Source: Patescibacteria group bacterium (GTDB lineage: Bacteria > Patescibacteriota > Patescibacteriia > UBA10025 > JAHIVO01). Taken from it: DNA of 60,657 nt. The translations under genes were made by a program, and so were the position numbers. The stretch spans positions 1 through 60,657 of the forward strand of contig JBAZNF010000002.1 in the NCBI GenBank assembly GCA_041649335.1. Reading direction: 5' to 3'. Position 1 is the first letter of the stretch, and each line of letters begins with the position of its first letter. Below, piece after piece: positions 2,085 through 25,609 of the stretch. Under the pieces are notes generated by a model. It saw nothing but the letters and a program-made list of their open reading frames with translations. It did no database searches and had not been told where the DNA came from.

Positions 2085-2093
2085 GTGGTGGCT

Positions 2094-3086: not shown

Positions 3087-3087
3087 A

Positions 3088-4470: not shown

Positions 4471-4510
4471 GTGTTAGTTGTTAGTTATTAGTAGGCTGGC
4501 AATCAAGGCG

Positions 4511-5737: not shown

Positions 5738-5754
5738 GTGTAGAGATCCTCGGG

Positions 5755-7233: not shown

Positions 7234-7240
7234 AATGGTA

Positions 7241-8329: not shown

Positions 8330-8330
8330 G

Positions 8331-9719: not shown

Positions 9720-10793
9720 CTATATCAGCAGGTAGATGCCAAGTGACAACAATATAATGCCCGCAACAGCATGAAGGAGCCTTAGTCGTCGCTGGCGGAT
9801 AGCTTCCAGTCGCTCGGGCTTAAGGCCATAATATACCGCCAGAGTGATGGCGATCATCGGCAGGATAAAAATCAAATTGTAATAGACCAGCCACTGCACG
9901 GCTTTTGGGAAGGTGGCTGACGTGCCCAGCATGCCGATAATGACAATATAGGGTCCGGATGTACAGGGCAGTAGGAATATGCTGACCACAATGCCGACGG
10001 CAAAAGCAATAAGCGGGTTGGTAACTGATTGGATAAGCTGTTTCAGCCGGGGACGCCAACCCATCGGGACTTCCATAAGAAATCCTTTGCCGTACCATAT
10101 CGCGTCTTTGATGTTAAACAACCCAAGGACGATGGCCAGTATGCCGATAATCCGTTGGATCCATACGGTCGTCCCAACCGCCGATACGGCCGAATATAAT
10201 CCCAGCCCCATGGCCAGATAGGAGAGGTAGATGGCCAGCGTAAAGGTTAAACCGGATACCAATGCGCGGCGCCGGCTTCCTGATGCCAATACCGTGCCCA
10301 TAAGAATGACCAGGACGGCGAAGGCGCACGGGTTGATGGCGTCCACCAGCGCGGCCCCACTCACTGACCAGACATTGAGGGAGGCGGATGGTGCGGTATC
10401 CTCGTGGGCAGTATTTGTCGCGGCGGGTGACGGTATGGCCGACGGCGGGGAGTTTAACGCCGCGATGATGGGTGAGTCGCCGACAAAATAATGCCCGTTG
10501 ATAATGGCGAACGGCACACCCTGGTCTGATGCCGGGACGCGGTATTGGCTGAACAGGCTGGTGAGTTCTTGGGCATTTTGCGCATTGGAATATACTTCCT
10601 TACTGACGATGTCATAACGCTCATCCAGGCGGTTGTCCTGGATATATTGCTTTACGATTTCACAATGCGGACAGCCTTCGCCCCAGTACAAATACACGGT
10701 CATTTTTTCCGTCTGGGCGTGCAGGGCGACCGGCACAATGAGAGCCGTCAGTATTAGGGCCATGACGGCGAGAGCAGTGCACATCCGATTCAT
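9720..10793 (-). CDS. thioredoxin-like domain fused to CcdA/DsbD-type transmembrane thiol-disulfide transporter
   Basis: 357 aa. Signal/TM segment, then YLYWGEGCPHCEIVKQYI (CPHC redox motif). This is followed by a polytopic domain with DAINPCAFAVL and FLLPCTSGPY, the conserved Cys-containing helices of CcdA/DsbD. Confidence 0.8.
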   Translation of the reverse strand: MNRMCTALAVMALILTALIVPVALHAQTEKMTVYLYWGEGCPHCEIVKQYIQDNRLDERYDIVSKEVYSNAQNAQELTSLFSQYRVPASDQGVPFAIINGHYFVGDSPIIAALNSPPSAIPSPAATNTAHEDTAPSASLNVWSVSGAALVDAINPCAFAVLVILMGTVLASGSRRRALVSGLTFTLAIYLSYLAMGLGLYSAVSAVGTTVWIQRIIGILAIVLGLFNIKDAIWYGKGFLMEVPMGWRPRLKQLIQSVTNPLIAFAVGIVVSIFLLPCTSGPYIVIIGMLGTSATFPKAVQWLVYYNLIFILPMIAITLAVYYGLKPERLEAIRQRRLRLLHAVAGIILLSLGIYLLI

Positions 10794-13842: not shown

Positions 13843-15417
13843 ATGCACAACGAGCGTAAGATTAGCCATTTTTTTGTTAATCAGTGGTCCTGGATTAGCT
13901 ACCTGGTAATTTTTATTATTACGTTTGTTTTTTTTACCTGGCTGCAGGCTCCGGCATCGTTCCCGGACCCGGATTCCTTTTACCATACGGAGATGTCCCT
14001 GCTGATCCCCTCCGAGGGGATCCAGAAGACATTTCCCTGGCTGCAGGCCACTATTTTGAAGGATTCTTTCATTGACCAGCATTTTTTATACCACGTATTC
14101 CTGATGCCTTTTACCCATGCCATGAACCCGATCCAGGGCGCCAAGCTGGCCACGGTATTCCTGGGGGCGGGCTTATTGACCCTTTTTTACTGGTTGATGC
14201 GCGCCCAGAAGATAAAATTCGCCTTCGTATTCACGATGGCGCTTTTAGCCTCCATGCCGTTTGTTTTCCGCATCAATTTGGTCAAAGCGCCGGTTGTGTC
14301 CATTATTTTGCTGCTGGTCGGGCTATATTTGATGTTCCGGCACCGGTATTTTTTGCTTTTTGGGCTATCGTTCGCATTTGTTTGGGCCTATGGCGGGTTC
14401 ATTCTCATAATCGTTTTTACCGGGGTATACGCTGTCGTGTCCGTATTTGCCGATTTGTGGCGGCATGAGAGGGCGCGTAATTTTTTTATCGTCCTGAGCC
14501 ATAACCGGGAGGTCAGGCTTTTTATCGCCTCCTGTCTGGGGGTGGTGGCCGGGCTGATCATCAATCCGTACTTTCCCAATAACATCAGTTTTTACTGGCA
14601 TCAGCTGGTTCAGATAGGGATTATCAATTACCGTTCCGTCATTTCCGTCGGCAATGAGTGGTACCCGTATTCTTTTTTCGATTTAACCGCCAATACCGCG
14701 CTGGTGTCGATTTTGGTATTAGCGTCGATTTTATCTACAGTCCTCCAGTACCGGCCACCGACCAAAAAAGTCGTGACATTATTTTTCATTTATATCCTGT
14801 TTTTCGCCTTTACCCTGAAGTCGCGGCGGTACGTGGAATATTACGTGCCGTTCGGTATTTTATTTTCCGCATTTGCCTTAGGACAGCATATGTATCATCT
14901 GGAATGGCGCCGCGTCTGGTCGCGTGCATTATCGTTGTATATGCAGCACCGGATCGTCGGAACGATATTGATCGTATATTTTTTGACCACCATCCCCACG
15001 GTGATTATTAAGGATATACATTCTACGCATCACGACTATACGTCAGGCATCCCGGTTACCCGGTTTGCCGGTGTGGGCAGCTGGCTGGCGGAGTATTCCG
15101 AGCCGGGGGATATCGTATTCCATTCCAGTTGGGACGAATTTCCGGTCCTGTTTTACCACAGCCCGAAGGATTATTACATAGCCGGATTGGACCCGACCTT
15201 TACCTATGAATACAGCAAAGAGCTGTATCGGCAGATGGTGGACATTACTTTGGGCAGCCAGTCTACATACCTCTATCGGGACATTACGGAAAATTTTCAC
15301 GCGAAATACGTGCTGGTCGAAGCGAATCATTTCAAGATGAACAGTAATATCAAGGCTAATGCGGGCTTTACGGAAGTATATAAGGATAAAGACGCGACGT
15401 TGTATCAAGTAAACTAA
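13843..15417 (+). CDS. polytopic membrane protein, putative GT-C-fold glycosyltransferase (1 of 3)
   Basis: 524 aa with ten or more hydrophobic segments by eye. Acidic first-loop motif FPDPDSFYH. The soluble C-terminal domain ends ..FTEVYKDKDATLYQVN, a tail pattern shared with the third gene. Confidence 0.55.
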   Translation: MHNERKISHFFVNQWSWISYLVIFIITFVFFTWLQAPASFPDPDSFYHTEMSLLIPSEGIQKTFPWLQATILKDSFIDQHFLYHVFLMPFTHAMNPIQGAKLATVFLGAGLLTLFYWLMRAQKIKFAFVFTMALLASMPFVFRINLVKAPVVSIILLLVGLYLMFRHRYFLLFGLSFAFVWAYGGFILIIVFTGVYAVVSVFADLWRHERARNFFIVLSHNREVRLFIASCLGVVAGLIINPYFPNNISFYWHQLVQIGIINYRSVISVGNEWYPYSFFDLTANTALVSILVLASILSTVLQYRPPTKKVVTLFFIYILFFAFTLKSRRYVEYYVPFGILFSAFALGQHMYHLEWRRVWSRALSLYMQHRIVGTILIVYFLTTIPTVIIKDIHSTHHDYTSGIPVTRFAGVGSWLAEYSEPGDIVFHSSWDEFPVLFYHSPKDYYIAGLDPTFTYEYSKELYRQMVDITLGSQSTYLYRDITENFHAKYVLVEANHFKMNSNIKANAGFTEVYKDKDATLYQVN

Positions 15418-15427
15418 TAGAATCAAC

Positions 15428-16690
15428 ATGCCGGGGCCAGAAAAAACGCTAGCAGTCAAATCAAAAAAGCCTTTAATTATAATTGTGGTGTTTGCGATTT
15501 TCCTGGGCGGCGGCGTATGGTGGGCGCATTCCAGCCCGTCAAAATTTGCGAGTTGGTTGCCGGGCGGCGGCGTCAGCGTAACCCGTGACGACCAGGAGCT
15601 GTCAGTCTATTTTGAAAGGGTAGGCTTTGTCCGTGCGCATAGCGTTCCGTATAAGGAGAACCGGATTGAATATCCGATTCTTGGCACAATGTATCTGTCC
15701 CTCCCGGCACTGGCCAGCGGCGATGAAGCCGGTTACGCGCTTTGGCTGATGATCCTCAACAGCCTGTCGGCCGTGGCGCTGATGTATGTTACGTACCGCC
15801 TGCTGGCGCTATTGGGCCGCCCACACTCATTATTGTGGCTGTTTTTTCTGCCGGGGGTGGCATATTTTACGTTAAACCGTTTTGATATTTGGCCGGCTTT
15901 ACTGGTCCAGCTGAGTTTGCTGATGCTGTTCACAAAGCGGTGGAATTGGGCTTTTGTATTGCTGTGCGCGAGTTTTCTGGCCAAAGGGTACGCGATTCTT
16001 CTGTTCCCGATTTTTTTCGCTTATTGGCTGAGCCAGACAAAGCGGCCGGAGGTCAGTTTATGGAAAAACAAGCCGCTCTGGCTCCTCGTCGGGCCGGTCC
16101 TGGTCGTGATACTGTTGATGGTTGCGATGGCCGGAGGGCAAAATGGGCTGTTCCCTTACTATTTCCAGTCCACCCGCGGGTTCGCATTCGGTAGTGCGTA
16201 TACGATTTATATTATTGGGCTGACGTTCCTGATTCAGGAGCGCTGGCTGGTTATCATGATCGGCATTGCGACAAAAGTCATGTTGTTGGTACAGTTTATC
16301 CTGCCTGCGTTAATGTATGGCGGATACGCATTTTTTAGGCGTTTTATCCGTCAGACGGACGACGTCGTCCACTGGTCAACTATCGTTATTGCCGTGTATA
16401 TCCTCTTTTCCCCTTATTATTCACCGCAGTGGCTGTTGTGGCTTGTCCCGCTGTTGTTATTATGGCGGGCGTCTACAGTGGCCGGCCTGGCTGCCTTCGC
16501 CTATGGGCTGATGGCGTATTTGGAATTTCCCATAGCCATTAATGTATTTGGTTTTGATTCTATCCAGTATAATATGTTAGTGTTGGCGCGAACCGTATTA
16601 TTAGTTTCGATCGTTGTCATCGGGGCGGTCCAATTAAGGCGACGCGCGGACACGGCAGTCCCGCCGGCACCACTTCCCCTCCACTCATAA
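15428..16690 (+). CDS. polytopic membrane protein, putative GT-C/DUF2029-like glycosyltransferase (2 of 3)
   Basis: 420 aa, hydrophobic throughout. The first extracytoplasmic loop has RDDQELSVYFERV..EYPILGTMYL. Starts 10 nt after the previous stop. Confidence 0.45.
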   Translation: MPGPEKTLAVKSKKPLIIIVVFAIFLGGGVWWAHSSPSKFASWLPGGGVSVTRDDQELSVYFERVGFVRAHSVPYKENRIEYPILGTMYLSLPALASGDEAGYALWLMILNSLSAVALMYVTYRLLALLGRPHSLLWLFFLPGVAYFTLNRFDIWPALLVQLSLLMLFTKRWNWAFVLLCASFLAKGYAILLFPIFFAYWLSQTKRPEVSLWKNKPLWLLVGPVLVVILLMVAMAGGQNGLFPYYFQSTRGFAFGSAYTIYIIGLTFLIQERWLVIMIGIATKVMLLVQFILPALMYGGYAFFRRFIRQTDDVVHWSTIVIAVYILFSPYYSPQWLLWLVPLLLLWRASTVAGLAAFAYGLMAYLEFPIAINVFGFDSIQYNMLVLARTVLLVSIVVIGAVQLRRRADTAVPPAPLPLHS

Positions 16691-16696
16691 AACAAC

Positions 16697-18319
16697 ATGG
16701 TTGAACTTTGGCGATCAATAACAAAAAAAGAATGGCGTCTGGTCATGGCACTGGCCGGTGTTATTATTATCGTGACGGCCATACCGTACCTGTACGGGTA
16801 TTTTACGACACCGGTCGGCATGGCCTATACGGGCGTTCACTATCTGACGCCGGGGGATATCAATGTCATGCTGTCCAATATTGAACAGGTGAAACAGGGG
16901 CATCTTATTTTCATCAATCCGTATACAGCCGAACCGCAGCACCGCTGGCTGGTCAATCCGTTGTGGCTGTCGATCGGGGCGATGGCAAAAATATTCAGCC
17001 TTCCCAACCTGCTGGCGTACCACATCGCGCGTTCGATCTGGATCGTGATTTTTTTCGTAGTCATGTATTTGTTCCTGATGTTCATGTTTTCTGACCGGCG
17101 AAAACGCCTGTGGATGATGGTCATCATTATCGCTTCATCCGGGCTTGGGCTTTTTTTCAATCCGTTCCTTTTTGACCTTACTAATTTATATGAGCATCCG
17201 ACAGATACGTGGGTGCCGGAAAGCATCACGTTTTTGACGTTGTACCATTCACCGCACCTGATCGCTTCGTTGACGCTGATCATCCTGGTTTTCCTGCTGA
17301 TGCTTCTGGCATTTGACACTAACCGGTGGCGCTATTCGATCGGTGCCGGCGTGTCCTGTTTTTTCCTCCTGTGGTTCCATCCGTTCAATGGCCCGACGAT
17401 TTTTTCCGTCCTGGGCGTATATATGCTGACCATGTTTTTCCGTTCGCGGAGAATCATCTGGTCATATGTGCGGCATTATGCCGTGCTCTGCGTATTTCCC
17501 ATTCCCATCGTCATATATATGTATATGATGAGCAAGTATGACTGGGTTATCCGCATGTGGAACCAGCAGAATGTCCTGCCTTCCCCCAGCGTGTGGATGT
17601 ACCTGATCGGGTACGGGCTCCTTATTCCGTTGGGTGTTTATGGCCTGTGGATAACCTGTAAAAAGCTTGATTCTAAAGGGGTTTTTATCATAGGGTGGCT
17701 CGCAACATCGGCGCTTCTGGTTTATTTCCCTATTTATTTTCAACGCCGGATGATTGAGGGGTTCCACATTCCTTTAGCGATACTGGCAGCCTTGGCATTG
17801 CTGGCCCTGGTTGACCGGTGGCGGGATCCGCGCCCCGGCAGCTGGCAACTGAAATTGAGCCTGCTTGTTGCTTTTTGCGCGATATTTCTGCCGCTGACCA
17901 ACATCCAGATCATGGGGCAGGATATTTTCAAGTACCAGACGAATAAGGAGTATCCGTATTATCTGCCCCAGACCGAGATAGAGTCGATGCAATGGCTGAA
18001 AGCGCATACGACGGATAGGGATATTATTTTTTCCACGTACGAGATCGGAAATTTCATCCCGGCTTATTCCGGCCGGGTCGTCTGGATCGGCCATGGGCCG
18101 CAGACCATCAACCTGGAGGAGAAATACATACAGAATGCCTGGTTCTGGTGGCAGGACGATATTAACGGGTCCAAGCGCCAGTGGCTGCATGACCAGCGCG
18201 TAACGTATCTCTGGTACGGTCCCAATGAAAAAAACGCCGGCGCATACGTGCCAGACACGAAAACATATTTGGAAAAAGTTTTCAGCAATTCAGACGTCAG
18301 CCTTTACCGCGTCCAATAA
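16697..18319 (+). CDS. polytopic membrane protein, putative GT-C-fold glycosyltransferase (3 of 3)
   Basis: 540 aa with many TM segments. The C-terminal soluble domain ends ..LEKVFSNSDVSLYRVQ, paralogous to the tail of the first gene. Confidence 0.55.
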   Translation: MVELWRSITKKEWRLVMALAGVIIIVTAIPYLYGYFTTPVGMAYTGVHYLTPGDINVMLSNIEQVKQGHLIFINPYTAEPQHRWLVNPLWLSIGAMAKIFSLPNLLAYHIARSIWIVIFFVVMYLFLMFMFSDRRKRLWMMVIIIASSGLGLFFNPFLFDLTNLYEHPTDTWVPESITFLTLYHSPHLIASLTLIILVFLLMLLAFDTNRWRYSIGAGVSCFFLLWFHPFNGPTIFSVLGVYMLTMFFRSRRIIWSYVRHYAVLCVFPIPIVIYMYMMSKYDWVIRMWNQQNVLPSPSVWMYLIGYGLLIPLGVYGLWITCKKLDSKGVFIIGWLATSALLVYFPIYFQRRMIEGFHIPLAILAALALLALVDRWRDPRPGSWQLKLSLLVAFCAIFLPLTNIQIMGQDIFKYQTNKEYPYYLPQTEIESMQWLKAHTTDRDIIFSTYEIGNFIPAYSGRVVWIGHGPQTINLEEKYIQNAWFWWQDDINGSKRQWLHDQRVTYLWYGPNEKNAGAYVPDTKTYLEKVFSNSDVSLYRVQ

Positions 18320-20289
18320 TCGATGGAGATGCCCGGCCCGACCGCCTGTTTTTTTGTGTAGACAATTTTTGCCGACCGCCATCCGTCCAGATCAAGGTAA
18401 CCCGCGGTCTCGACGGCTTCCAAATTGAGCTGACTATTTGACGTATGTACTGACGAGGGGACGGTAAGCCAGAAGTTTGTTGTGACATACGTACCGGCGG
18501 GCCAATCAAAAACCGGGAACAGTCCGTACCCAAACGGCAGTATTGTTTCAAATATATTTTTTCCGTTGTCGCCTGATACGGAAAATTCCAGATGAAAGTC
18601 GTCGGCCGCTGTTTGTGACAATCGCCAAACCAGAGAAAGGGAGATGTGGTTGGAGTCGATTGGCAGAGTGTTCATTTTTTTCCACCCGACGAATTCCAGT
18701 GTCGGGGTGATTTGTCGGTGCAGGGCGATGATGTCCGTCGGAGCGTCGGGTGAGACAGAATAAAGCGATAACGCGTCCGCCTGGCCTTTCGTGAACGTCA
18801 CAATAGAATCGTCCACCGATTCTATTACGAACCCGTTAGTGTCCAAGTACGCACGGATCCGTTCCGCCCCCCCAGCATATTGTTCGCTGTCCGAATATTG
18901 CAACTGGTAAATGATGAAATCGCGGGCATCCAAAATTATACGTTGGACCGACGTGGGTAATTCGTAGTCCTGTTCCGAATATTGTTTTTTCCCTAAAAAG
19001 GCGTAATTCAGCGAGTAAATGTGTTCGCGGGAGGAAAGCGGCGTCAGGAAATTATATCCGACGGCAACTGATTCATCAGGACTAGTCTGGTTAACGGATT
19101 GTTGTGCCGTGTGCGTGACGGTCGAATTCCACGGCGACTGGAATAACGAGCGGGCCATAGCAGTGATCGGGCTGATGATGGCGAACGAGTACACTATCGC
19201 CCCGATGATGATGACGCCATAGCGCCAACGATAGCGGAAAAATAAACGTTTTTTCGCTGTCTCAGGCTGGTTTGGCGCTATAAGGTAAGCGAGAGATATA
19301 ATGGCCGCGATAAATATGCCTGGCAGCAGGAGTGCCGTGTAATGCGTTTCCAGGACAACCGTCGGGTTAAGACCGGTCAGAAACAATTGAAGCGCGACCA
19401 AGAGCGTCAGCAGGAGCGCGCGCGGCTTCAGGAGATACAGTCCGGCCATCGGGAGGAGCAGCCCGCAGAGCAGCCAGAGATTGTTAAATGTGAAGAGGTG
19501 GGTAAGGATCAGCCACGGTTTCAGTGCTAGAGTTTTTATGGCCGAGCTGAAGCTGCCGCCCAGCCAGGGGTACATCAACAAAAATTTATAGGATCCGTAC
19601 CCGTTGAAGTAGCCGGTCAGCTGCATGGCGATGATAAACCACAGGCCGCCGGCGATGACCGGCGCGAGTATCCAGCGGAGCGGACGGCGGTCCAGGGCGG
19701 CCAGTGCCCCGAACATAATGACGGCCAGTGCCACGTCTTCACGCACCGTCAGGGCAAGAAGGGAGCACAACAGGAACGGAGTAAATTTTTTCTGGTCATA
19801 AAAATAGTAGGCGCTTAGCAGCAGGATAACGGCAAACGGCAGGAGGTGGAATTCGAAGAAGGCCATGTTCCAGAGAAAAGGGTTGAGCAGCCAGGCGGCG
19901 GCCATGGCCAGCGCGAAATGCGCCGGGAGGTATTTTTTTGCGATCAGGAACAGAGGCCAGGCGGCCAGGGTCAGCCCCAGGGCCTGGAGGATCAGTAGCG
20001 TGGCCGGCGACGGCTTCAGGGCATACAACGGAGCTAACGCCAGGATAAAAATTTCAAAATGATCGCCCAGATAGGAATGCGGATGGACACTGAACTGAAA
20101 CAGGCGTCCGTGGACGGTATTGTAGAAAACCTGGTTATAGATGCCCAAATCCATGGCGTTATAGCCAAAGTGCTGATATTTGACGATCAGTGCCCAGACC
20201 ATAACCGCCGAAACCAGGGTGATCAGGATGGCCAGAGACGTATAGGGGTGGCGGCCGAGCCAGGCGATAATTTTTTTCATTGTTGCCAT
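18304..20289 (-). CDS. DUF2079-family polytopic membrane protein with large C-terminal extracytoplasmic domain
   Basis: 661 aa. N-terminal ..KYQHFGYNAMDLGIYNQVFYNTVHGRLF.. resembles the DUF2079 signature. The 3' end overlaps the convergent GT-C gene by 16 nt. Confidence 0.6.
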   Translation of the reverse strand: MATMKKIIAWLGRHPYTSLAILITLVSAVMVWALIVKYQHFGYNAMDLGIYNQVFYNTVHGRLFQFSVHPHSYLGDHFEIFILALAPLYALKPSPATLLILQALGLTLAAWPLFLIAKKYLPAHFALAMAAAWLLNPFLWNMAFFEFHLLPFAVILLLSAYYFYDQKKFTPFLLCSLLALTVREDVALAVIMFGALAALDRRPLRWILAPVIAGGLWFIIAMQLTGYFNGYGSYKFLLMYPWLGGSFSSAIKTLALKPWLILTHLFTFNNLWLLCGLLLPMAGLYLLKPRALLLTLLVALQLFLTGLNPTVVLETHYTALLLPGIFIAAIISLAYLIAPNQPETAKKRLFFRYRWRYGVIIIGAIVYSFAIISPITAMARSLFQSPWNSTVTHTAQQSVNQTSPDESVAVGYNFLTPLSSREHIYSLNYAFLGKKQYSEQDYELPTSVQRIILDARDFIIYQLQYSDSEQYAGGAERIRAYLDTNGFVIESVDDSIVTFTKGQADALSLYSVSPDAPTDIIALHRQITPTLEFVGWKKMNTLPIDSNHISLSLVWRLSQTAADDFHLEFSVSGDNGKNIFETILPFGYGLFPVFDWPAGTYVTTNFWLTVPSSVHTSNSQLNLEAVETAGYLDLDGWRSAKIVYTKKQAVGPGISIDYWTR

Positions 20290-20315: not shown

Positions 20316-20353
20316 GAAAAACAAACCCCCCACACCTGGTGTGATGTGGGGGG
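20316..20353 (-). terminator. intrinsic terminator after the distal pilin gene
   Basis: 9-bp G/C-rich stem ccccccaca / tgtgggggg. On the minus strand it is followed by TTTGTTTTTC. Confidence 0.75.
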
Positions 20354-20384: not shown

Positions 20385-20738
20385 TTAGGTCGTGACCTTG
20401 TTGGTCTGAGTGACGACGAAGATGACGATAGCCCAAGCCAGCAATATGACGATTAAACCGATGACAGCGGCGGAAATGATTTTTTTCGCGCCTGCTACCT
20501 TTTCTTCGTTGCCGCCGGCGGTCATCCATTGGAAACCACCGATCAAGATCATGATGACGGCGACGAGACCGAGAAAGCCGAGCACCCATTGCACGATCTT
20601 AATGACCGTTGATTCGAGGTCAGCCGTTCCCAGGCCTAACGTCGGGCCGAGGTTGGTTACGGTAACAGCGGAGGCTGCAAACGGGATGGCGACTGCCGCG
20701 ATAGTTAATAAACCGGCAAGAAATACTTTTTTGTTCAT
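20385..20738 (-). CDS. VirB2/TrbC-like (T4SS-type) pilin, candidate major subunit
   Basis: 117 aa. Signal peptide MNKKVFLAGLLTIAAVAIPFAASA. Then two hydrophobic helices separated by a short basic loop: LIGGFQWMTAGGNEEKVAGAKKIISAAVIGLIVILLAW. Confidence 0.7.
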   Translation of the reverse strand: MNKKVFLAGLLTIAAVAIPFAASAVTVTNLGPTLGLGTADLESTVIKIVQWVLGFLGLVAVIMILIGGFQWMTAGGNEEKVAGAKKIISAAVIGLIVILLAWAIVIFVVTQTNKVTT

Positions 20739-20814: not shown

Positions 20815-20843
20815 ATTATACCTTAATTCCCTGACTTTGTCAA
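20815..20843 (-). promoter_or_regulatory. perfect consensus sigma70 promoter for the distal pilin gene
   Basis: Minus strand reads TTGACA, 17 nt (aagtcagggaattaagg), TATAAT. The implied 5' UTR is about 70 nt and an SD-like GGGGGTGA precedes the ATG. Confidence 0.75.
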
Positions 20844-20850
20844 ACGCCCG

Positions 20851-21264
20851 CTACAGTTTTTTTTGGATTTCCTCGAAAATGAATTTCAAGACCGAATAGC
20901 TGAGCGTAATCACCAAAATACCCACGATGGCCCAGACCAGCGTGTCTTTGGCCTTTTTGACCATATTGGGGTTGCCGGCGGAAATCAGGAATTCAAACCC
21001 GCCCAAAATAACCATGAACAAGGCGAAGATGTCCACCGCCGCCAGCAATATCTGCAGGACGCGTAGCATGATTTTGATCAGATCGACATTTTTCCCGAGC
21101 GGGTTCGGCAGTGACGGGGTACCTGTGGTCGTGGTAGCGCCGGTATTGGTATTGCCCGTGTTAGTGGACTGGGCCTGTAGCGATACCGGAAACAGGAGTA
21201 CGGAGCCAGCCCATATGGCAGACAGGGCGATCACGGTCAGGATGAGCAAGGTGTTTTTTTTCAT
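20851..21264 (-). CDS. VirB2/TrbC-like pilin paralog with Thr/Asn-rich linker
   Basis: 137 aa. Signal/TM, then the low-complexity stretch STNTGNTNTGATTTTGT, then ILGGFEFLISAGNPNMVKKAKDTLVWAIVGILVITLSY (same helix-loop-helix as its neighbours). Confidence 0.65.
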   Translation of the reverse strand: MKKNTLLILTVIALSAIWAGSVLLFPVSLQAQSTNTGNTNTGATTTTGTPSLPNPLGKNVDLIKIMLRVLQILLAAVDIFALFMVILGGFEFLISAGNPNMVKKAKDTLVWAIVGILVITLSYSVLKFIFEEIQKKL

Positions 21265-21282: not shown

Positions 21283-23268
21283 TTACGGCAGAGGAGTATT
21301 ATTGACCAGGAGGTCGCAGGTGATAGAGGTCTGCACATTGTCGCAGGCGCGGTCATTCTCATAGAACGTGCCGCCATTCATACTGCAGTAAATTTCAGTG
21401 GACCATTGGGTGCAGGTTGTTAGGTCAATTTGCGGCGGTCCGGGGTCGATGATGTCTGTTTTGACGCAACACCCCTGGACACAGGCCCGCTGGCCATTGT
21501 TCGGGTCGACGACATTGATACAGCGGTCGCCAGGCCGGAAGGCAGTGACCGGGAATGTCGCACTGCATTTAGCGCGCGTCAATGGCTCGAAACAGTTGTA
21601 ATCGTTGTCCAACTCAACACAACAGCCACTACAGTCGCCGACGGTGGAGCAGGCTGCTCCGGACGAAAATGTTCCGCCAGCCAGGGTGCATTGAGCTTGA
21701 GTATAACTTTCATGGCACGTTAGATCATTGTTTGGATTAACACAGCAGCCGGTGACACACTGAGGGTCGGGTGGGCTTGAAGCGGCAGTGAAGGTGCCGG
21801 TGCAGGCGATCCGGGCTACCGGACTGACACAGGCGCCAGTAGTAGTATTCCGGCAGGTGCCGGTTTCACACTGTTGGCCGGCGTTTGTCGGGCAGGCGCC
21901 GCCAGGCCCGCCAAGTATCGTCTGGTTGTTTGGAGGTAGGCAGGTTTGTTGCGAGACCGCACTGCTGCAGGTGAGAGCATTTTGGTACAGACAGCATACC
22001 GGGGCGCATGACGTGTTAGCGGAACATGTGTTATTTATATCATAGGTGAGGTTGGCGCATGAGCCGTCGATATTTCCGTCCGTACAAGTTTCCTGGCAGC
22101 AGCCATCCGTACATGAAGTAAATTGTGAACAACTGATGTCATTATTGAATATCCCCCCGACTGTCGTGCAGTAGCCGGCGGTGTAGTTGTTGTAGCAGTT
22201 ATTATTTCCGCCTGGATCCTGGATGCAGCAGCCAGTCAGGCACAGGCCGAGGATATCTCTGGCCTCTTTGCATGTTTGGGGGACATAAATATTGCTGGTG
22301 CAATTAATTTTACTGTCACTGCAGCTGCTTTGGCCAATACAACAGCCGATAATGCATTCAGTTTCGTCCGTACAACTGACACCAGGTTTGAAAGTGCCGC
22401 CGCTCGGGCAGTTAGCCGAGGTCGTCGTGGTACAGGTATTTGGCTGGATACAGCAGCCGGTGCCGGTTTCGCTGGCCGTGCTGGTACCCTGGATGAGAGC
22501 GGGGTCGCAGTCCTGGCCCAGGAAATTACAGGCCGTATTGGAGTGGTAGGTGGTGGGCCAGTTGATACAGCCAGTTTTACTGTCCGGCCAGTAGCAGGTT
22601 TTATCCGTGGTGTCGTCGGGGACGCAGCAGCCGATGGTATAATTCTTGCAGACAGCCGGGTACTCAGAACAGAATTGGTTTTCACCCATGAATTGGACGC
22701 TGGCGCCGCCGTAGGTACCGCTGATCGCAGTGCAATCGGTTTGGGTCATTTCTTTGCAGCCGTAATCCTCTACATAGCAGCACCCGGCATTTGGTTGGTG
22801 CGGGTTGGCTACGCCGCCGCCCCACCATTCTTTTGAAAATGGCGTGCCATAATCCGGGAATATGTTAGTACTCCCGGTCAGGACGAATACGATAAAATTG
22901 CCGAACGCCCACGCCAGGAAGATGATAATAATGACGCCGACTACTACTGAGGTAATCATTTTTTTCCCCTGTTGGATCTTTTCCGGATTGCCGCCGGCCA
23001 TAATCAGGTTGAAGCCGGCCCAGATCATCATGATCATGGCCAGGTAAGGCAGGAGCTTCAGGGCGACCTGCGCCAGGTTGATGAACAGCTGGACAAATGA
23101 GTTCAGGTTGCATTCGGCATTTTTTTGGTCGCCTAAACATTCCGGGGGGATAATCTGGAATCCGCTGCTTGATTCCGCGGCCCGTGTTACGGCCGGGATA
23201 ACGAGTGCGGCAAGGGCAACCACTGTTATGGCCGTAAGGATAAGTCGTTTGTGGCGGAAGGTAGACAT
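21283..23268 (-). CDS. pilin-like N-terminal domain fused to ten tandem six-cysteine modules (putative surface stalk/adhesin)
   Basis: 661 aa. Signal peptide, then IWAGFNLIMAGGNPEKIQQGKKMITSVVVGVIIIIFLAW (pilin-like hairpin). From residue 163 there are ten CC-initiated Cys modules; I counted 66 Cys in total. Confidence 0.8.
   Translation of the reverse strand: MSTFRHKRLILTAITVVALAALVIPAVTRAAESSSGFQIIPPECLGDQKNAECNLNSFVQLFINLAQVALKLLPYLAMIMMIWAGFNLIMAGGNPEKIQQGKKMITSVVVGVIIIIFLAWAFGNFIVFVLTGSTNIFPDYGTPFSKEWWGGGVANPHQPNAGCCYVEDYGCKEMTQTDCTAISGTYGGASVQFMGENQFCSEYPAVCKNYTIGCCVPDDTTDKTCYWPDSKTGCINWPTTYHSNTACNFLGQDCDPALIQGTSTASETGTGCCIQPNTCTTTTSANCPSGGTFKPGVSCTDETECIIGCCIGQSSCSDSKINCTSNIYVPQTCKEARDILGLCLTGCCIQDPGGNNNCYNNYTAGYCTTVGGIFNNDISCSQFTSCTDGCCQETCTDGNIDGSCANLTYDINNTCSANTSCAPVCCLYQNALTCSSAVSQQTCLPPNNQTILGGPGGACPTNAGQQCETGTCRNTTTGACVSPVARIACTGTFTAASSPPDPQCVTGCCVNPNNDLTCHESYTQAQCTLAGGTFSSGAACSTVGDCSGCCVELDNDYNCFEPLTRAKCSATFPVTAFRPGDRCINVVDPNNGQRACVQGCCVKTDIIDPGPPQIDLTTCTQWSTEIYCSMNGGTFYENDRACDNVQTSITCDLLVNNTPLP
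21286..22782 (-). repeat. coding tandem repeat: ten CC-x-C-x-C-x-C-x-C modules of 35-83 aa
   Basis: CC doublets occur at GCCYVED, GCCVPDD, GCCIQPN, GCCIGQS, GCCIQDP, GCCQETC, VCCLYQN, GCCVNPN, GCCVELD and GCCVKTD. Nine modules have exactly 6 Cys and the seventh has 10. A GG(T/I)F motif recurs in the third loop. Confidence 0.85.
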
Positions 23269-23273
23269 GATAA

Positions 23274-24659
23274 TTAGTAGGTTTGTTGGATTTTTTGCGC
23301 GGCCGCATCCAGAGAGGTCTGGATGGCGTTCGGGTCTGCAGCGACCGTTTCAATCATGTCGGCGAATGCCTGCGCCGCGGAAACAGGGTCACGGCCGTGA
23401 TACCAGCTGGTGGCCGTCAGAGCCTGCTGGGCCAGGATGCTCAGGTCCTGTTCTTTGAGCTGGTCGCTGAGGATGGAGCGGAGGACGCTGGTCTGGCTGG
23501 TCGCTTTCGTGTAGATGGCCGCCATTTTCTTGTCGGCCGCGAACTGCAGGAAATTCCAGGCCACGGCAGAATTTTTTGTCTTTTTTGATACCGTAAAGAC
23601 ATTATAGCTGGCGAAATTCACTTCATTTTCCAGGTCAACCTGGGGCAGCGGCGCGTACGCATAATCGATGCCGCGGTTCTTTGACTTGATGTCAGCTTCC
23701 TGGCTTTTATACCCGAAAAACAAGGCTAATTTCCCTTCCGCAAAATAATCCAGGGCATTGGGCATGGCCGCGTTCCAGGTGTAGGTGGTTTTATTGGGGC
23801 TGGTAAAATCAGTATAAAAACGCAACGCCTGGGCGCCGGGAATATATGCGGTGTCATTGACTGACGGCTGGTTGAATGAAACTTTTTCTCCGGAGGTCAT
23901 CTGCGTGCCGTTTTGCAGCATCAGAACGGTAACGATATCAATGGCATTGGGGATGTTTTCGTAGGTCCCGAGGGCGGCGCCGGCCCTGACGATATTGTTC
24001 TGGTCATCCAGGACGGTCAGGCGCGGGATAACGGTGGCGAATTCGGCCCAGGTCCGTGGCGGATCGATGATGTGGGCCTGGTTGAGGAGGTCCCGGTTGT
24101 AGTACATGACCAGGGTATTGACGCTCAGCGGCAGGCCGTATATTTTTCCGTCGAAAATGATGTCGTTATAAACGGTATCGATGTAATTTCGTTTGATGTC
24201 CGCTGACGTCAATGAAGTGGTGGGCGTGGCGGTAATTGACGTGTCAGTTTTGAATAATGTTTTTTTGGTGGTGTAGGTATAGACTGTGGTCGATTTTGGA
24301 AGCGGCGTAATGAAATCAGCCCGGTACTTGTTCAGTCCGGTATTGGGGATGGCATAAATGTCCGGACCCGTGTCAGTGGCCCAGCCGTTGAGGAGGGCGT
24401 CGGCATATTCTTCCGGACGTTTTTTCACGTATTTCAGCTTAACGTAGGGATGTGCCTTGCGGTAGGCGCTGAAGATTGCCGAGAGGTCAGAGGTCTCGTC
24501 CCAGACTCCCCACACCGTCAGACTGACTGATTTCGGGGGCGGCGTTCCTTTCGGTCCGAAGATGATAAAAATGACCCCTCCGATGATCAGCGCGATACTG
24601 CCGAGGATGATTAGGATAAAGACTTTTGAAACGCCGAGGCGTCGTTGTCCCACGTGCAT
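23274..24659 (-). CDS. membrane-anchored extracellular solute-binding protein (family 1, sugar-type)
   Basis: 461 aa. N-terminal TM anchor (VFILIILGSIALIIGGVIFIIF), then LTVWGVWDETSDLSAIFSAYRKAHPYVKLKYV typical of ABC substrate-binding proteins. No permease or ATPase genes are adjacent. Confidence 0.75.
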   Translation of the reverse strand: MHVGQRRLGVSKVFILIILGSIALIIGGVIFIIFGPKGTPPPKSVSLTVWGVWDETSDLSAIFSAYRKAHPYVKLKYVKKRPEEYADALLNGWATDTGPDIYAIPNTGLNKYRADFITPLPKSTTVYTYTTKKTLFKTDTSITATPTTSLTSADIKRNYIDTVYNDIIFDGKIYGLPLSVNTLVMYYNRDLLNQAHIIDPPRTWAEFATVIPRLTVLDDQNNIVRAGAALGTYENIPNAIDIVTVLMLQNGTQMTSGEKVSFNQPSVNDTAYIPGAQALRFYTDFTSPNKTTYTWNAAMPNALDYFAEGKLALFFGYKSQEADIKSKNRGIDYAYAPLPQVDLENEVNFASYNVFTVSKKTKNSAVAWNFLQFAADKKMAAIYTKATSQTSVLRSILSDQLKEQDLSILAQQALTATSWYHGRDPVSAAQAFADMIETVAADPNAIQTSLDAAAQKIQQTY

Positions 24660-24666
24660 GGTTGGG

Positions 24667-25557
24667 TTACAAATGAAGCGACTTTAAATACTCCCGGAAT
24701 GGTTCAGCCAGGTCTTTTCTGGATAAGGCGAATTCAACATTCGCCTTGAGGTATTCCAGCTTATTGCCGGTATCATAATATTTGCTGTTTTTAATTTCGC
24801 ACGCATAGATGGGCTCGCGGGTCATCAGGTCCTTAATGGCGTCCACCAGCCAGAGTTCACCGTCTTTGCCCGGCTGCAGGTTGCGTAATGACGGGATGAT
24901 GCCCGGCGTCAGGATATATGCGCCATGTGTGGCCAGGTTTGACGGCGCTTCCTCCGGTTTCGGTTTTTCGACCAGCGACTTAATAGTAAAAACGTTTTTT
25001 TCGCCCGGTATCGGCTCAATGTCGGCAATGCCATATTTTGATACATCTTTTTTATTGGGAATGCGCACGGCGCTGATGACCGAATGGCCGTATTTTTCGT
25101 ATACGTCCATCATCTGTTTGAGCCGCGGCGGGTCGCTGTGGAAGAATTCGTCGCCCCATAAAACTGCGAACGGTTCGTGCTCGACCAGGTGCCGGGCGGA
25201 AATGACCGGCGTAGCGTTACCGTATGCGCCTTTTTGGCGGATATAAATGAAATTGGCCAGCTCCGGAATACGCCGGATTTCCTTGAGCATTTCCATTTTA
25301 CCGGATGCTTCCAATTGCCGTTCCAATTCGAGCGAATAGTCAAAATGGTCTTCCAGGGAGCGTTTCTGCCAGCTAGTGACGATAATAATATCCTTGATGC
25401 CTGCGGAAACAGCCTCTTCTACGACGAACTGGATGACTGGTTTATCGATGATGGGCAGCATTTCTTTCGGCTGGGCTTTTGTCACCGGCAAAAAACGCGT
25501 CCCGAATCCGGCGGCCGGGATCACAACTTTCGTAATTTTTGGGAATGAATTTTTCAT
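24667..25557 (-). CDS. galU: UTP--glucose-1-phosphate uridylyltransferase
   Basis: 296 aa. KVVIPAAGFGTRFLPVTKAQPKEMLPIIDKPVIQFVVEEA is the GalU signature. Confidence 0.92.
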   Translation of the reverse strand: MKNSFPKITKVVIPAAGFGTRFLPVTKAQPKEMLPIIDKPVIQFVVEEAVSAGIKDIIIVTSWQKRSLEDHFDYSLELERQLEASGKMEMLKEIRRIPELANFIYIRQKGAYGNATPVISARHLVEHEPFAVLWGDEFFHSDPPRLKQMMDVYEKYGHSVISAVRIPNKKDVSKYGIADIEPIPGEKNVFTIKSLVEKPKPEEAPSNLATHGAYILTPGIIPSLRNLQPGKDGELWLVDAIKDLMTREPIYACEIKNSKYYDTGNKLEYLKANVEFALSRKDLAEPFREYLKSLHL

Positions 25558-25580: not shown

Positions 25581-25609
25581 ATTATATCATAAAACGTCTA
25601 TTTTGTAAA
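25581..25609 (-). promoter_or_regulatory. promoter candidate for the galU-SBP-Cys-module-pilin operon
   Basis: Minus strand reads TTTACA, 17 nt, TATAAT with a TG extension (TGATATAAT). The -10 ends 24 nt before the galU ATG. Confidence 0.55.

What the first reader, a model, noticed from the sequence alone, without database searches (positions are those of the whole stretch)
21283..23268. Pilin-type membrane anchor fused to ten tandem CC-initiated six-cysteine modules (661 aa, 66 Cys)
Seen: after a signal peptide, residues about 55-130 align by eye with the two small ORFs downstream. The three sequences are IWAGFNLIMAGGNPEKIQQGKKMITSVVVGVIIIIFLAW, LIGGFQWMTAGGNEEKVAGAKKIISAAVIGLIVILLAW and ILGGFEFLISAGNPNMVKKAKDTLVWAIVGILVITLSY. 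This is the two-helix hairpin with a short basic loop typical of VirB2/TrbC-type pilins. From residue 163 to the end the protein consists of ten consecutive modules that each start with CC, nine of them as G-C-C. The pattern is GCC-x(3-9)-C-x(6-9)-C-x-[GG(T/I)F]-x-C-x(4-7)-C. Nine modules have exactly 6 Cys. The seventh has 10 and seems to contain an extra degenerate copy lacking the CC. I do not recognise the module as a named family. Inference: with VirB2-like topology the 500-aa array would be extracytoplasmic. It would then be a disulfide-knotted stalk or adhesin carried by a pilin anchor, a plausible host-attachment device for an episymbiotic small-genome bacterium.
Basis: partly seen in the sequence, partly recalled or inferred. 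Interest (0 to 1): 0.88.

Follow-up and report, generated by a model that had tools for sequence, protein, structure and literature searches.

The report
Pilin fused to ten cysteine-knot modules
A tiny-genome (Patescibacteria) bacterium encodes a secretion-system-type pilin whose membrane hairpin carries a 500-residue outward-facing chain of ten disulfide-stapled mini-domains of a kind no database has named. This is probably a rare decorating subunit or surface stalk, and nobody has tested what it does.

Summary
Residues 61-126 pass Pfam's threshold for T4SS_pilin (PF18895), as do both small ORFs downstream. The fusion is not an assembly artefact. About 20 Patescibacteria/Kerfeldbacteria genomes carry the same architecture in one conserved block: GalU-like, TM-anchored sugar-type SBP, pilin1, pilin2, pilin3, DUF2079.

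Only pilin1 carries a C-terminal extension, and that extension is a swappable cassette. It holds 2, 4, 8 or 10 Cys modules, and a PG_binding_1 domain in four of the more distant orthologues. pilin3 has its own perfect consensus promoter and a strong terminator, both conserved across loci, so it is probably the abundant subunit.

The module matches nothing in Pfam or NCBIfam, in PDB sequences, or by Foldseek. AlphaFold2 models it confidently. The same 6-Cys module recurs in large secreted non-pilin proteins elsewhere. Paired loss of cysteines predicts disulfides C1-C5, C2-C4 and C3-C6. No T4SS machinery lies within 10 kb.

Verdict: a real, new variant of a known kind, namely a modular VirB2-like pilin with an uncurated disulfide-rich repeat. 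The adhesin role remains inference.

The parts
25581..25609 (-). Promoter-like site (TTTACA-17-TATAAT with TG, 11 of 12) upstream of the GalU-like gene. It is the likely start of the GalU-SBP-pilin1-pilin2 transcript.
   Evidence: The gaps between these four genes are 7, 5 and 18 nt (coordinates).
24667..25557 (-). NTP_transferase (GalU-like sugar-1-phosphate nucleotidyltransferase), the first gene of the conserved block.
   Evidence: Pfam PF00483. Present upstream of the SBP in the loci that reach that far.
23274..24659 (-). Sugar-type solute-binding protein, 461 aa, anchored by one N-terminal TM helix. No ABC permease or ATPase is adjacent. It ends 5 nt before the pilin1 start codon.
   Evidence: Pfam SBP_bac_6; NCBIfam GanS/MalE-like; PDB sugar-SBP matches down to E 9e-13; TM scan; synteny.
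21283..23268 (-). pilin1: the 661-aa Cys-rich modular pilin. This is the whole ORF including the stop codon.
23179..23268 (-). Residues 1-30: Sec-type signal peptide (KR, a hydrophobic stretch, then TRA|AE).
   Evidence: Sequence, hydrophobic segment 9-27, helix 3-22 in the model. The cleavage site is inferred.
23101..23178 (-). Residues 31-56: N-terminal outside segment containing Cys44 and Cys53 (C53 invariant, C44 present in most homologues; numbered C43 and C52 in the alignment), net acidic.
   Evidence: Alignment A1.
22879..23100 (-). Residues 57-130: two-helix membrane hairpin with the basic loop GGNPEKIQQGKKM. This is the PF18895 T4SS_pilin domain and the most conserved part of the protein (55-95% identity among homologues).
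22786..22878 (-). Residues 131-161: linker carrying the conserved motif IFPGTPFxKEWWGGG. Its role is unknown.
   Evidence: W146 and G148 (W147 and G149 in the 661-aa protein) are invariant; F, W, G and G are at least 90% conserved.
21286..22785 (-). Residues 162-661: ten tandem 6-Cys modules with the pattern G-C-C-x(3-17)-C-x(6-8)-C-x(9-20, with an aromatic)-C-x(5-12)-C. Module 7 has an extra degenerate 4-Cys copy. The array is acidic (45 D/E against 17 K/R) and rich in T, S, N and G.
   Evidence: AF2 pLDDT is 75-89 over most of residues 160-440 and 85.6 for modules 4+5 alone.
20851..21264 (-). pilin2: 137-aa PF18895 pilin with a T/N/G-rich N-terminal outside segment and no Cys.
20815..20843 (-). 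Perfect consensus promoter (TTGACA-17-TATAAT, 12 of 12) in the 112-nt gap before pilin3.
   Evidence: Conserved at 12 of 12 in 11 of 21 loci and at 11 of 12 or better in 16.
20385..20738 (-). pilin3: 117-aa PF18895 pilin (49 bits) and the best-conserved pilin of the three (62-91% identity across the loci holding the full block). It is the probable major subunit.
20326..20353 (-). Intrinsic terminator (11-bp stem, 8 GC pairs, TTTGTTTTT tail) directly after pilin3.
   Evidence: A hairpin followed by TTTGTTTT recurs after pilin3 in most loci.
18304..20289 (-). DUF2079 membrane protein, 661 aa, about 9 TM helices plus a soluble C-terminal part. It always follows pilin3.
   Evidence: Pfam PF09852, E 9e-54; TM scan; synteny.
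13843..18319 (+). Three unannotated multi-pass membrane proteins (524, 420 and 540 aa), each with about 8-9 TM helices. They are convergent with DUF2079. The 540-aa one is conserved at this place in nearly all loci.
   Evidence: No Pfam match; TM scan; synteny. In L004 the same neighbourhood holds GT2, MptA_B and GT87 glycosyltransferases.

Best explanation
The gene encodes a modular VirB2-like pilin (Pfam PF18895, 'T4SS_pilin') of a Patescibacterium related to Kerfeldbacteria. The proposed mechanism has these steps.

1. A Sec signal peptide is cleaved (inferred).
2. A conserved two-helix hairpin sits in the cytoplasmic membrane, with its short basic loop inside and both ends outside. The family match and the helices are shown. 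The orientation is inferred from charge and from the conserved outside cysteines.
3. After a conserved WWGGG linker, ten roughly 40-residue modules lie outside the membrane. Each is stapled by three disulfides, with predicted pairing C1-C5, C2-C4 and C3-C6. Together they give a stiff, acidic, protease-resistant rod. This is inferred from strict 6-Cys periodicity, paired loss of cysteines and confident AF2 models.
4. The protein is the first of three pilin paralogues kept together in every related genome. The third, small one has its own consensus promoter and terminator and is probably the abundant building block. The Cys-rich one is co-transcribed with a GalU-like gene, an anchored sugar-binding protein and pilin2. 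It most likely joins the same membrane pool or assembly through its hairpin as a low-copy subunit and displays the rod at the cell surface.
5. The rod is an exchangeable head: orthologues carry 2, 4, 8 or 10 modules, or a peptidoglycan-binding domain. I take it to be a contact or binding element that reaches into or through the cell wall, either to a partner cell or to wall glycan.

The module itself belongs to a wider repeat family that no database has curated and that also occurs in large secreted proteins.
For: Anchor and topology:
- PF18895 passes the cut-off in all three ORFs. Several small relatives also hit PF04956 TrbC/VirB2, or JGI names them as the VirB2 component.
- AF2 gives a helix hairpin at 54-89 and 94-130.
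- The hairpin is 55-95% conserved, while the array without its Cys is 17-68% conserved.
- 40 columns are invariant across 20 homologues, 23 of them Cys.

Modules:
- Exactly 6 Cys occur in 202 of 230 modules of the pilin family and in 346 of 383 modules of non-pilin proteins.
- Cys loss is paired. C1 is lost with C5 in P0018 (by ortholog alignment), P0047 and P0051; C2 is lost with C4 in P0014; fifteen 4-Cys copies lack one Cys of the CC pair and one of the later Cys (twelve clearly lack C1 and one of C5/C6).
- The AF2 model of modules 4+5 has pLDDT 85.6 and pTM 0.74.
- A DsbA-like gene directly precedes a non-pilin homologue.
- A CPHC thioredoxin-DsbD-like membrane protein lies 10 kb away in the window.

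Context:
- The same gene block recurs in the fetched relatives: the full GalU-to-DUF2079 block in the 17 loci that span it, partial in the contigs that end sooner.
- The C-terminal cassette varies: 10, 8, 4 or 2 modules, or PG_binding_1.
- The perfect promoter and the terminator around pilin3 are conserved across loci.
- VirB2-like arrays of 2-11 genes are known in Patescibacteria, and one such array is reported as essential in Southlakia (doi 10.1101/2025.01.22.634366).
Against: - No VirB4, VirB6 or VirD4 gene lies within 10 kb in the three loci with called-gene Pfam annotation (L001, L003, L004), or among the larger window ORFs scanned. A link to a secretion machine is therefore not shown.
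- No PF18895 protein has been shown to form a filament.
- A 500-residue appendage on a VirB2-type subunit has no structural precedent.
- A peptidoglycan-binding domain in orthologues fits a wall-bound membrane protein as well as it fits a pilus subunit.
- The PDB sequence search with the hairpin profile found no VirB2 or TraA.
- The disulfide map rests on few informative cases, and one weak case (P0068) does not fit.
- No expression or protein data were available.
Confidence: 0.55

Rival explanations
1. The protein is a membrane-anchored envelope protein and not a pilus subunit. The hairpin only tethers the protein. The Cys-rich rod is then a spacer or structural element of the wall or surface layer, possibly glycosylated by the neighbouring multi-pass membrane proteins using sugar activated by the GalU-like enzyme.
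For: - There is no T4SS machinery nearby.
- Four of the more distant orthologues carry PG_binding_1 at the same place.
- The block always includes a GalU-like gene, DUF2079 and further 8-9-TM proteins. In L004 it also includes GT2, MptA_B and GT87 glycosyltransferases.
- The array is 21% Thr+Ser.
Against: - The hairpin is far more conserved (55-95%) than a simple tether needs to be. It also shares the family motif with two co-located paralogues.
- pilin3 has the strong promoter, short gene and strong terminator expected of a highly expressed gene, as a major structural subunit would need.
- N-x-S/T sequons are not enriched, at 9 against 7.5 +/- 2.3.
- That DUF2079 and its neighbours are glycosyltransferases was not shown here: there was no PDB sequence match and no literature.
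Confidence: 0.3
2. The array is a lectin. On this view the 6-Cys modules are small carbohydrate-binding knots, analogous to hevein-type domains, that bind wall or capsule glycan of the cell itself or of a host. They would replace the peptidoglycan-binding domain of the distant orthologues. This is compatible with either placement above.
For: - The modules swap with, or co-occur with, PG_binding_1 at one orthologous position. L021 has both.
- Every module keeps an aromatic residue between C4 and C5.
- Non-pilin relatives pair the modules with a Laminin_G_3 (ConA-like) domain and with surface-sorting signals.
- A sugar-type SBP is co-transcribed.
Against: - There is no sequence or fold similarity to any known carbohydrate-binding module.
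- The surface residues of the array evolve fast, which is unusual for a conserved glycan site.
- The argument is by association only.
Confidence: 0.2
3. The array is a thiol-based metal or redox buffer (metallothionein-like), not a disulfide scaffold.
For: The array is 13% Cys.
Against: - The predicted location is outside the membrane.
- The Cys number per module is even and fixed, and losses occur in pairs.
- The predicted fold is a beta-hairpin plus helix at high confidence.
- The array has only 2 His.
- A DsbA-like gene neighbours a homologue.
Confidence: 0.03
4. The fusion is an assembly chimera or a decaying gene.
For: None was found.
Against: - An identical 661-aa ORF lies on a Logan contig from sequencing run SRR8542065, alongside the ENA contig.
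- Full-length collinear orthologues at 48-72% identity come from separate genomes.
- The junction, including the WWGGG motif, is among the best-conserved stretches.
Confidence: 0.01

Closest known systems
Small VirB2-like pilins of Patescibacteria (Pfam PF18895 T4SS_pilin), including the 'VirB2 arrays' of 2-11 genes described by Quinonero-Coronel et al. (doi 10.1101/2025.01.22.634366)
   Same: - The protein matches the same Pfam family above the cut-off.
- It has the same layout of signal peptide, two helices and a basic loop.
- It sits in a tandem array with two ordinary members.
- It comes from the same phylum.
   Different: - The 120 best relatives of the hairpin are all 82-148 aa. This protein is 661 aa with a 500-residue C-terminal extension.
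- The array here is not next to virB4.
- It sits in a fixed block with GalU-like, SBP and DUF2079 genes.
Classical conjugative pilins VirB2/TrbC/TraA (PF04956 and relatives)
   Same: It shares the hairpin topology with both ends outside and the loop inside (from established knowledge of VirB2/TraA). Some close small relatives also hit PF04956.
   Different: - The window protein itself has no PF04956 hit at E<=1.
- It has no sequence match to solved pilins.
- Classical pilins are small and carry no appended domains.
- No cognate machinery is seen nearby.
Modular type IV pilins and two-domain fimbrial adhesins, such as Streptococcus sanguinis PilB/PilC or FimH (recalled from the literature, not tested here)
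   Same: The design principle is the same: a pilin module that can join a fibre, fused to a functional outside module, expressed beside a more abundant plain pilin.
   Different: - It belongs to an unrelated pilin superfamily.
- It lacks the class III signal peptide (G|FTLxE), as seen by reading the sequence.
- It has a different appended fold.
Unnamed 'GxCC' 6-Cys repeat proteins found here (P0028, P0031, P0032, P0038, P0040, P0041 and others)
   Same: - They have the same module: G-x-C-C, C, C, GG-x-aromatic, C, C, with 6 Cys per copy in tandem.
- HMMER E-values range from 1e-20 to 1e-4, and hhalign gives probability 92% with E 5e-7.
- All have N-terminal signal peptides.
   Different: - They have no pilin hairpin.
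- They are 300-2100 aa long with up to 40 modules.
- They carry other anchors or partners: IPTL-CTERM, Laminin_G_3, an adjacent DsbA-like gene.
- One is from the amoeba Mastigamoeba balamuthi.
- None has a Pfam or NCBIfam model.
Known small disulfide-rich repeats (EGF/laminin-EGF, TNFR CRD, Kazal/follistatin, hevein CBM18, granulin)
   Same: The size is similar (35-60 residues), with three disulfides and tandem use in extracellular proteins.
   Different: - There is no Pfam hit, even for single modules at E<=10.
- There is no PDB sequence hit at E<=10.
- Foldseek finds nothing for the 2-module model (0 hits at E<=10). For the whole model it finds only meaningless follistatin and ovomucoid alignments (E>8, rmsd 11-18 A).

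Membership tests
Pfam PF18895 T4SS_pilin (VirB2-like pilins of Patescibacteria/monoderms) | Scores above the curated gathering threshold of the family model. | tested here: met
   31.5 bits against 26.6, residues 61-126 on model positions 8-71 of 71. pilin2 scores 28.8 and pilin3 scores 49.2.
Pfam PF18895 T4SS_pilin | Signal peptide followed by two hydrophobic helices joined by a short basic loop. | tested here: met
   Hydrophobic segments at 9-27, 61-90 and 112-130; helices at 54-89 and 94-130; loop GGNPEKIQQGKKM.
Pfam PF18895 T4SS_pilin | Small single-domain protein of about 80-150 aa. | tested here: not met
   The protein is 661 aa, while the top 120 relatives of the hairpin are 82-148 aa. 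Hence it is a variant, not a typical member.
T4SS pilin in the functional sense (a subunit of a type IV secretion pilus) | Encoded with, or dependent on, VirB4/VirB6-type machinery. | tested here: not met
   No such Pfam families were found within +/-10 kb in L001, L003 and L004 or among the window ORFs scanned. VirB4 is reported in several Kerfeldbacteria genomes elsewhere (Table S1 of PMC12102498), so dependence in trans is open.
T4SS pilin in the functional sense | Polymerises into an extracellular filament. | not testable with these tools
   This needs purification, cryo-EM or cryo-ET.
TrbC/VirB2 (PF04956) | Match to the family model. | tested here: not met
   The window protein has no hit at E<=1. 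Orthologue L019 reaches only E 0.011, 16.4 bits against 27.9. Some small relatives carry a precomputed PF04956 hit.
Type IV (T4P) pilins | Class III signal peptide with a G|F/M-T-L-x-E prepilin peptidase site. | tested here: not met
   The N-terminus MSTFRHKRLILTAITVVALAALVIPAVTRAAE has no such motif.
   9 of 10 units in the window protein, 202 of 230 in the pilin family, and 346 of 383 in non-pilin proteins. Profile-profile probability is 92.4%.
Curated Cys-rich repeat families (EGF, TNFR, Kazal, hevein, granulin, DUF4215 and others) | Match to any Pfam/NCBIfam model or to a solved structure. | tested here: not met
   
Disulfide-bonded extracytoplasmic domain | Cysteines oxidised in pairs outside the membrane. 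| tested here: inconclusive
   Indirect evidence only: the Cys number is even and fixed, losses are paired, the topology fits, a DsbA-like gene neighbours a homologue, and a CPHC/DsbD-like protein is present in the window. There is no chemistry.

The most novel reading that the evidence does not exclude
A lineage of Patescibacteria builds a surface fibre or sheath from VirB2-type pilins that is genetically uncoupled from the type IV secretion machine. It tips or decorates that fibre with a modular pilin whose exchangeable head (a previously undescribed three-disulfide mini-fold, or a peptidoglycan-binding domain) mediates contact with the partner cell's wall. That would be the first modular VirB2-class pilin and a new adhesin fold. 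It would also give a concrete candidate for how non-Saccharibacteria CPR cells hold on to hosts.
Probability: 0.2. Interest if true: 0.8.

Novelty: new variant of a known kind. Interest (0 to 1): 0.6.

Why it matters
VirB2-class pilins are textbook small proteins. PF18895 pilins are among the most abundant Patescibacteria-specific families, and one array is reported as essential for epibiotic growth in Southlakia, yet their role is unknown.

A member that carries a large, fast-evolving, exchangeable outside domain would help in several ways:
- It marks which paralogue faces the outside world.
- It gives an epitope-rich handle for labelling and pull-downs in enrichment cultures.
- It defines a compact operon (a plain major pilin with its own promoter, plus minor pilins) that can be tested by metatranscriptomics and cryo-ET.

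Separately, the 6-Cys GxCC module is a widespread extracellular repeat, present in bacteria and in one amoeba protein, with no database model and no structural neighbour. It deserves a family definition and an experimental structure.

Tried and rejected
Searches that found nothing:
- Foldseek of the full model against PDB returned only noise. The 2-module model gave no PDB hit and only noise against BFVD.
- The PDB sequence search with the array profile gave 0 hits at E<=10. With the hairpin profile it gave only a designed helical repeat, which is spurious.
- Pfam on seven array fragments (single modules or adjacent pairs) at E<=10 gave nothing. NCBIfam gave only a sub-threshold 'Mbov_0395 pilin-like conjugal transfer protein' hit on the hairpin.
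- The third word-indexed homologue search, run with a single-module profile to learn the taxonomy of the non-pilin relatives, returned one 76-aa fragment and was wasted.
- The literature search for DUF2079 gave 0 papers. The search for Patescibacteria + cysteine-rich + pilin gave 0 papers.
- PDB sequence searches for DUF2079 and the 540-aa neighbour gave nothing, so their glycosyltransferase nature stays a guess from shape.

Ideas rejected:
- Recent DNA-level tandem duplication is rejected, because TRF finds none.
- N-glycosylation sequon enrichment is rejected, at 9 against 7.5 +/- 2.3.
- The metal-binding and chimera readings are rejected for the reasons given under rival explanations.

- I could not obtain model coordinates, so disulfide pairing could not be read from the AF2 models.
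Full report
**Observation**

The minus-strand ORF at 21283-23268 is 661 aa with 66 cysteines. Two of them lie in the N-terminal part (C44, C53) and 64 lie in residues 163-661. Ten CC dipeptides, nine of them preceded by G, cut the C-terminal 500 residues into ten modules. Nine modules have exactly six Cys, with spacings CC-x(3-17)-C-x(6-8)-C-x(9-20)-C-x(5-12)-C. The seventh has ten. Shuffling the array gives 0.77 GCC on average against 9 observed. There is no DNA-level tandem repeat, so the duplications are old. The only amendment is that GG[TI]F occurs in four modules, whereas an aromatic residue at that place occurs in all of them.

**The anchor**

Residues 61-126 match Pfam PF18895 (T4SS_pilin) at 31.5 bits against a cut-off of 26.6. 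The two small ORFs downstream match the same model: 20851-21264 (137 aa) at 28.8 bits and 20385-20738 (117 aa) at 49.2 bits.

The three pilin domains align with the shared motif GGF-x-L/W-I/M-x-A/S-GG-N-x-E-K-x(3)-G/A-K-K. AlphaFold2 gives two long helices at 54-89 and 94-130. A simple hydropathy scan finds the signal peptide and the two membrane segments.

Small relatives of this hairpin are all 82-148 aa. Some also carry a PF04956 TrbC/VirB2 hit, or JGI names them as the VirB2 component. The window protein itself has no PF04956 hit and no sequence match to solved pilins. Its membership of the VirB2 class therefore rests on PF18895.

The orientation (both ends out, loop in) is inferred from three features: the basic loop, the acidic flanks, and the Cys44/Cys53 pair in the N-terminal segment, of which C53 is invariant and C44 is kept in most homologues.

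**Not an artefact; a family**

The identical ORF occurs on a Logan contig from sequencing run SRR8542065, as well as on the ENA contig. Twenty clusters in the 5.8-billion-protein collection share the architecture, and five of them are full-length at 42-72% identity. All named sources are Patescibacteria or Candidatus Kerfeldbacteria. A scan of one genome per species found 21 loci. These are again Patescibacteria or Kerfeldbacteria, plus a few third-party assemblies whose 'uncultured Gammaproteobacteria' label is evidently a placeholder. In the 20-sequence alignment 40 columns are invariant, 23 of them Cys. The linker motif EWWGGG is also invariant or nearly so.

**Genomic context**

Every locus shows the same block, as far as its contig reaches: NTP_transferase (GalU-like), a solute-binding protein, pilin1, pilin2, pilin3, DUF2079, and a convergent 540-aa multi-pass membrane protein.

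- The solute-binding protein is a sugar-type SBP by NCBIfam and by PDB sequence matches. It has one N-terminal TM helix and no transporter partners nearby.
- DUF2079 and the three unannotated neighbours at 13843-18319 each have about 8-9 TM helices.
- In one relative the same neighbourhood holds GT2, MptA_B and GT87 glycosyltransferases.
- No VirB4, VirB6 or VirD4 family appears within 10 kb in the three loci with called-gene Pfam annotation, or among the larger window ORFs scanned.
- The published survey of Patescibacteria T4SS lists VirB4 as present in several Kerfeldbacteria genomes and absent in one (PMC12102498, Table S1). It also reports that VirB2-like genes often lie away from virB4 and form arrays of 2-11 genes.

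**Transcription signals**

The gaps GalU/SBP, SBP/pilin1 and pilin1/pilin2 are 7, 5 and 18 nt. An 11-of-12 promoter-like site precedes the GalU-like gene. The 112-nt gap before pilin3 contains a perfect TTGACA-17-TATAAT followed by a strong ribosome-binding site. pilin3 is followed at once by an 11-bp GC-rich hairpin with a T tail.

Both signals are conserved. The promoter scores 12 of 12 in 11 of 21 loci and at least 11 of 12 in 16. A hairpin plus TTTGTTTT follows pilin3 in most loci. pilin3 is also the best-conserved protein of the three, at 62-91% across the loci holding the full block, against 30-56% for pilin1. I read this as follows: pilin3 is the abundant subunit, while pilin1 and pilin2 are lower-copy partners. 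This reading is an inference from signals, not from expression data.

**The C-terminal extension is a cassette**

At the orthologous pilin1 position the extension varies:

| Extension | Loci |
|---|---|
| Ten CC modules | window, L003, L006, L007 |
| Eight CC modules | L004, L009-L012 |
| Four CC modules | L016 |
| Two CC modules | L013-L015, L017, L018, L020 |
| Other Cys-containing extensions with 0-1 CC module | L019, L021-L026 |

L021, L022, L024 and L025 carry a PG_binding_1 domain at 34-38 bits against a cut-off of 23. L021 has both PG_binding_1 and one CC module.

Within the family the hairpin is 55-95% identical to the window protein. The array without its cysteines is only 17-68% identical. 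The scaffold is fixed while the surface drifts or diversifies.

**The module**

- It matches no Pfam model, for the whole protein at E<=1 or for array fragments at E<=10.
- It matches no NCBIfam model.
- It matches no PDB sequence at E<=10.
- AlphaFold2 models the array with pLDDT 75-89 over most of residues 160-440. Modules 4+5 alone reach pLDDT 85.6 and pTM 0.74. In that model module 5 forms a beta-hairpin, a short helix and a further strand, and module 4 forms short strands and a helix.
- Foldseek finds nothing in the PDB for the 2-module model. It finds only noise for the whole model and in BFVD. Foldseek is weak on small disulfide-rich domains, so 'no neighbour' is a soft statement.

**A wider repeat family**

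A profile of the array searched against 1.84 billion representative proteins found 66 proteins at E<=1e-3. Some are further pilin-anchored proteins of 264-608 aa. Others are large non-pilin proteins of up to 2098 aa with up to 40 CC sites. In 24 of these non-pilin proteins, 346 of 383 CC-delimited segments have exactly six Cys, and the full-length ones start with a signal-peptide-like sequence.

Their consensus (GACC-x(4-6)-C-x(7-8)-C-x(3-6)-GG-x-aromatic-x(5-6)-C-x(4-5)-C) is that of the window's canonical modules. hhalign gives 92% probability and E 5e-7. None of them has a Pfam or NCBIfam model for the repeat. Partners include Laminin_G_3 and IPTL-CTERM. One protein is from Mastigamoeba balamuthi. 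In one bacterial genome the gene is directly preceded by a DsbA-like gene.

**Disulfide map (prediction)**

Degenerate copies lose cysteines in pairs.

- Fifteen 4-Cys copies in the pilin family lack one Cys of the CC pair and one later Cys; twelve of them clearly lack C1 and one of C5/C6.
- In P0018 the orthologous alignment shows C1 to T together with C5 to L.
- Two non-pilin modules align as xCCCxC.
- P0014 has lost C2 and C4 together.

This predicts C1-C5, C2-C4 and C3-C6. One weakly aligned case (P0068) does not fit.

**Interpretation**

Shown here:
- The gene is real and conserved.
- It has a PF18895 hairpin and a regular 6-Cys repeat without a database name.
- It sits in a fixed three-pilin block.
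- Its head is exchangeable.
- Strong, separate expression signals flank pilin3.

Inferred:
- The topology is out-in-out.
- The array is oxidised to three disulfides per module.
- The protein is a low-copy partner of pilin3.
- It has a contact or binding role at or beyond the wall.

The main rival is that the hairpin is just a tether, and that the protein is an envelope component tied to the neighbouring sugar-activating and multi-pass membrane proteins. A lectin function of the modules is compatible with both views and rests only on association.

**Known or new**

The pilin part is already auto-annotated as 'pilin' in NCBI records, and VirB2-like arrays in Patescibacteria are published. Three things are new here:
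- the recognition of a modular VirB2-class pilin with a swappable head in a conserved, T4SS-unlinked operon;
- the definition of the GxCC 6-Cys module as a widespread uncurated extracellular repeat;
- the predicted disulfide map.

I rate the finding a new variant of a known kind, with interest 0.6.

Noticed in passing
window 9720-10793 (-): This 357-aa protein has a signal peptide, a thioredoxin/glutaredoxin-like domain with a CPHC motif, and a 6-TM DsbD/CcdA-like membrane domain (NCBIfam DsbD, E 1.3e-5). It is a candidate extracytoplasmic thiol-disulfide oxidoreductase, 10 kb from the 66-Cys protein.
   Followed up: partly
window 20815-20843 (-) and 20326-20353 (-): A perfect sigma-70 consensus promoter and a strong intrinsic terminator bracket the 117-aa pilin3. 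Both are conserved in most related loci, which is unusual clarity for a Patescibacteria gene.
   Followed up: yes
L021:9839-10831, L022:2520-3635, L024:9704-10867, L025:11-1249: The orthologous first pilins of more distant relatives carry a PG_binding_1 domain (and in L022 and L025 a further beta-rich C-terminal part) instead of the Cys modules. L021 has PG_binding_1 plus one Cys module.
   Followed up: yes
window 23274-24659 (-): This is an orphan sugar-type solute-binding protein with one TM anchor and no ABC permease or ATPase nearby. It is co-transcribed with the pilins and conserved in the fetched loci that reach it. Its role is unexplained.
   Followed up: partly
window 13843-18319 (+) and 18304-20289 (-): These are four multi-pass membrane proteins (three without any Pfam match, one DUF2079), each with about 8-9 TM helices plus a soluble part. 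Their shape resembles GT-C glycosyltransferases, but this is unproven. They are conserved beside the pilin block.
   Followed up: partly
window 22786-22878 (-), residues 131-161: The linker motif IFPGTPFxKEWWGGG is invariant or nearly so in 20 homologues, and a degenerate [WF][WFY]G persists in the PG-binding orthologues. It is too conserved for a plain spacer. Its function is unknown.
   Followed up: no
P0028 (EukProt, Mastigamoeba balamuthi), 1672 aa: A eukaryotic (amoebozoan) protein with 29 CC sites is built from the same 6-Cys module. This may be lateral transfer or contamination, and it was not resolved.
   Followed up: no
L027:3126-3998 and 4001-8590: In a 5.3-Mb bacterial contig, a DsbA-like gene ends 3 nt before a 1529-aa Laminin_G_3 protein with 23 CC sites (about 23 modules). 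It looks like a dedicated oxidase for the repeat.
   Followed up: no
L006, L009, L015, L016, L023, L026 (record titles): Several third-party MAG assemblies titled 'uncultured Gammaproteobacteria bacterium' carry this Patescibacteria-specific operon with full synteny. The titles look like placeholder or wrong taxonomy.
   Followed up: no
window 20851-21264 (-), residues about 30-56 of pilin2: The N-terminal outside segment of pilin2 is a low-complexity T/N/G run (QSTNTGNTNTGATTTTGTPS). It could be an O-glycosylation or spacer region.
   Followed up: no
window 612-7374 (-): This stretch holds two starch/glycogen-synthase-like genes (Glyco_transf_5 + GT1) and a GH57 gene, a glycogen-type storage cluster in a small-genome bacterium.
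   Followed up: no
window 44501-46294 (-): This is a 597-aa protein with a NAGPA (phosphodiester glycosidase) domain and FG-GAP repeats, another probable surface protein.
   Followed up: no
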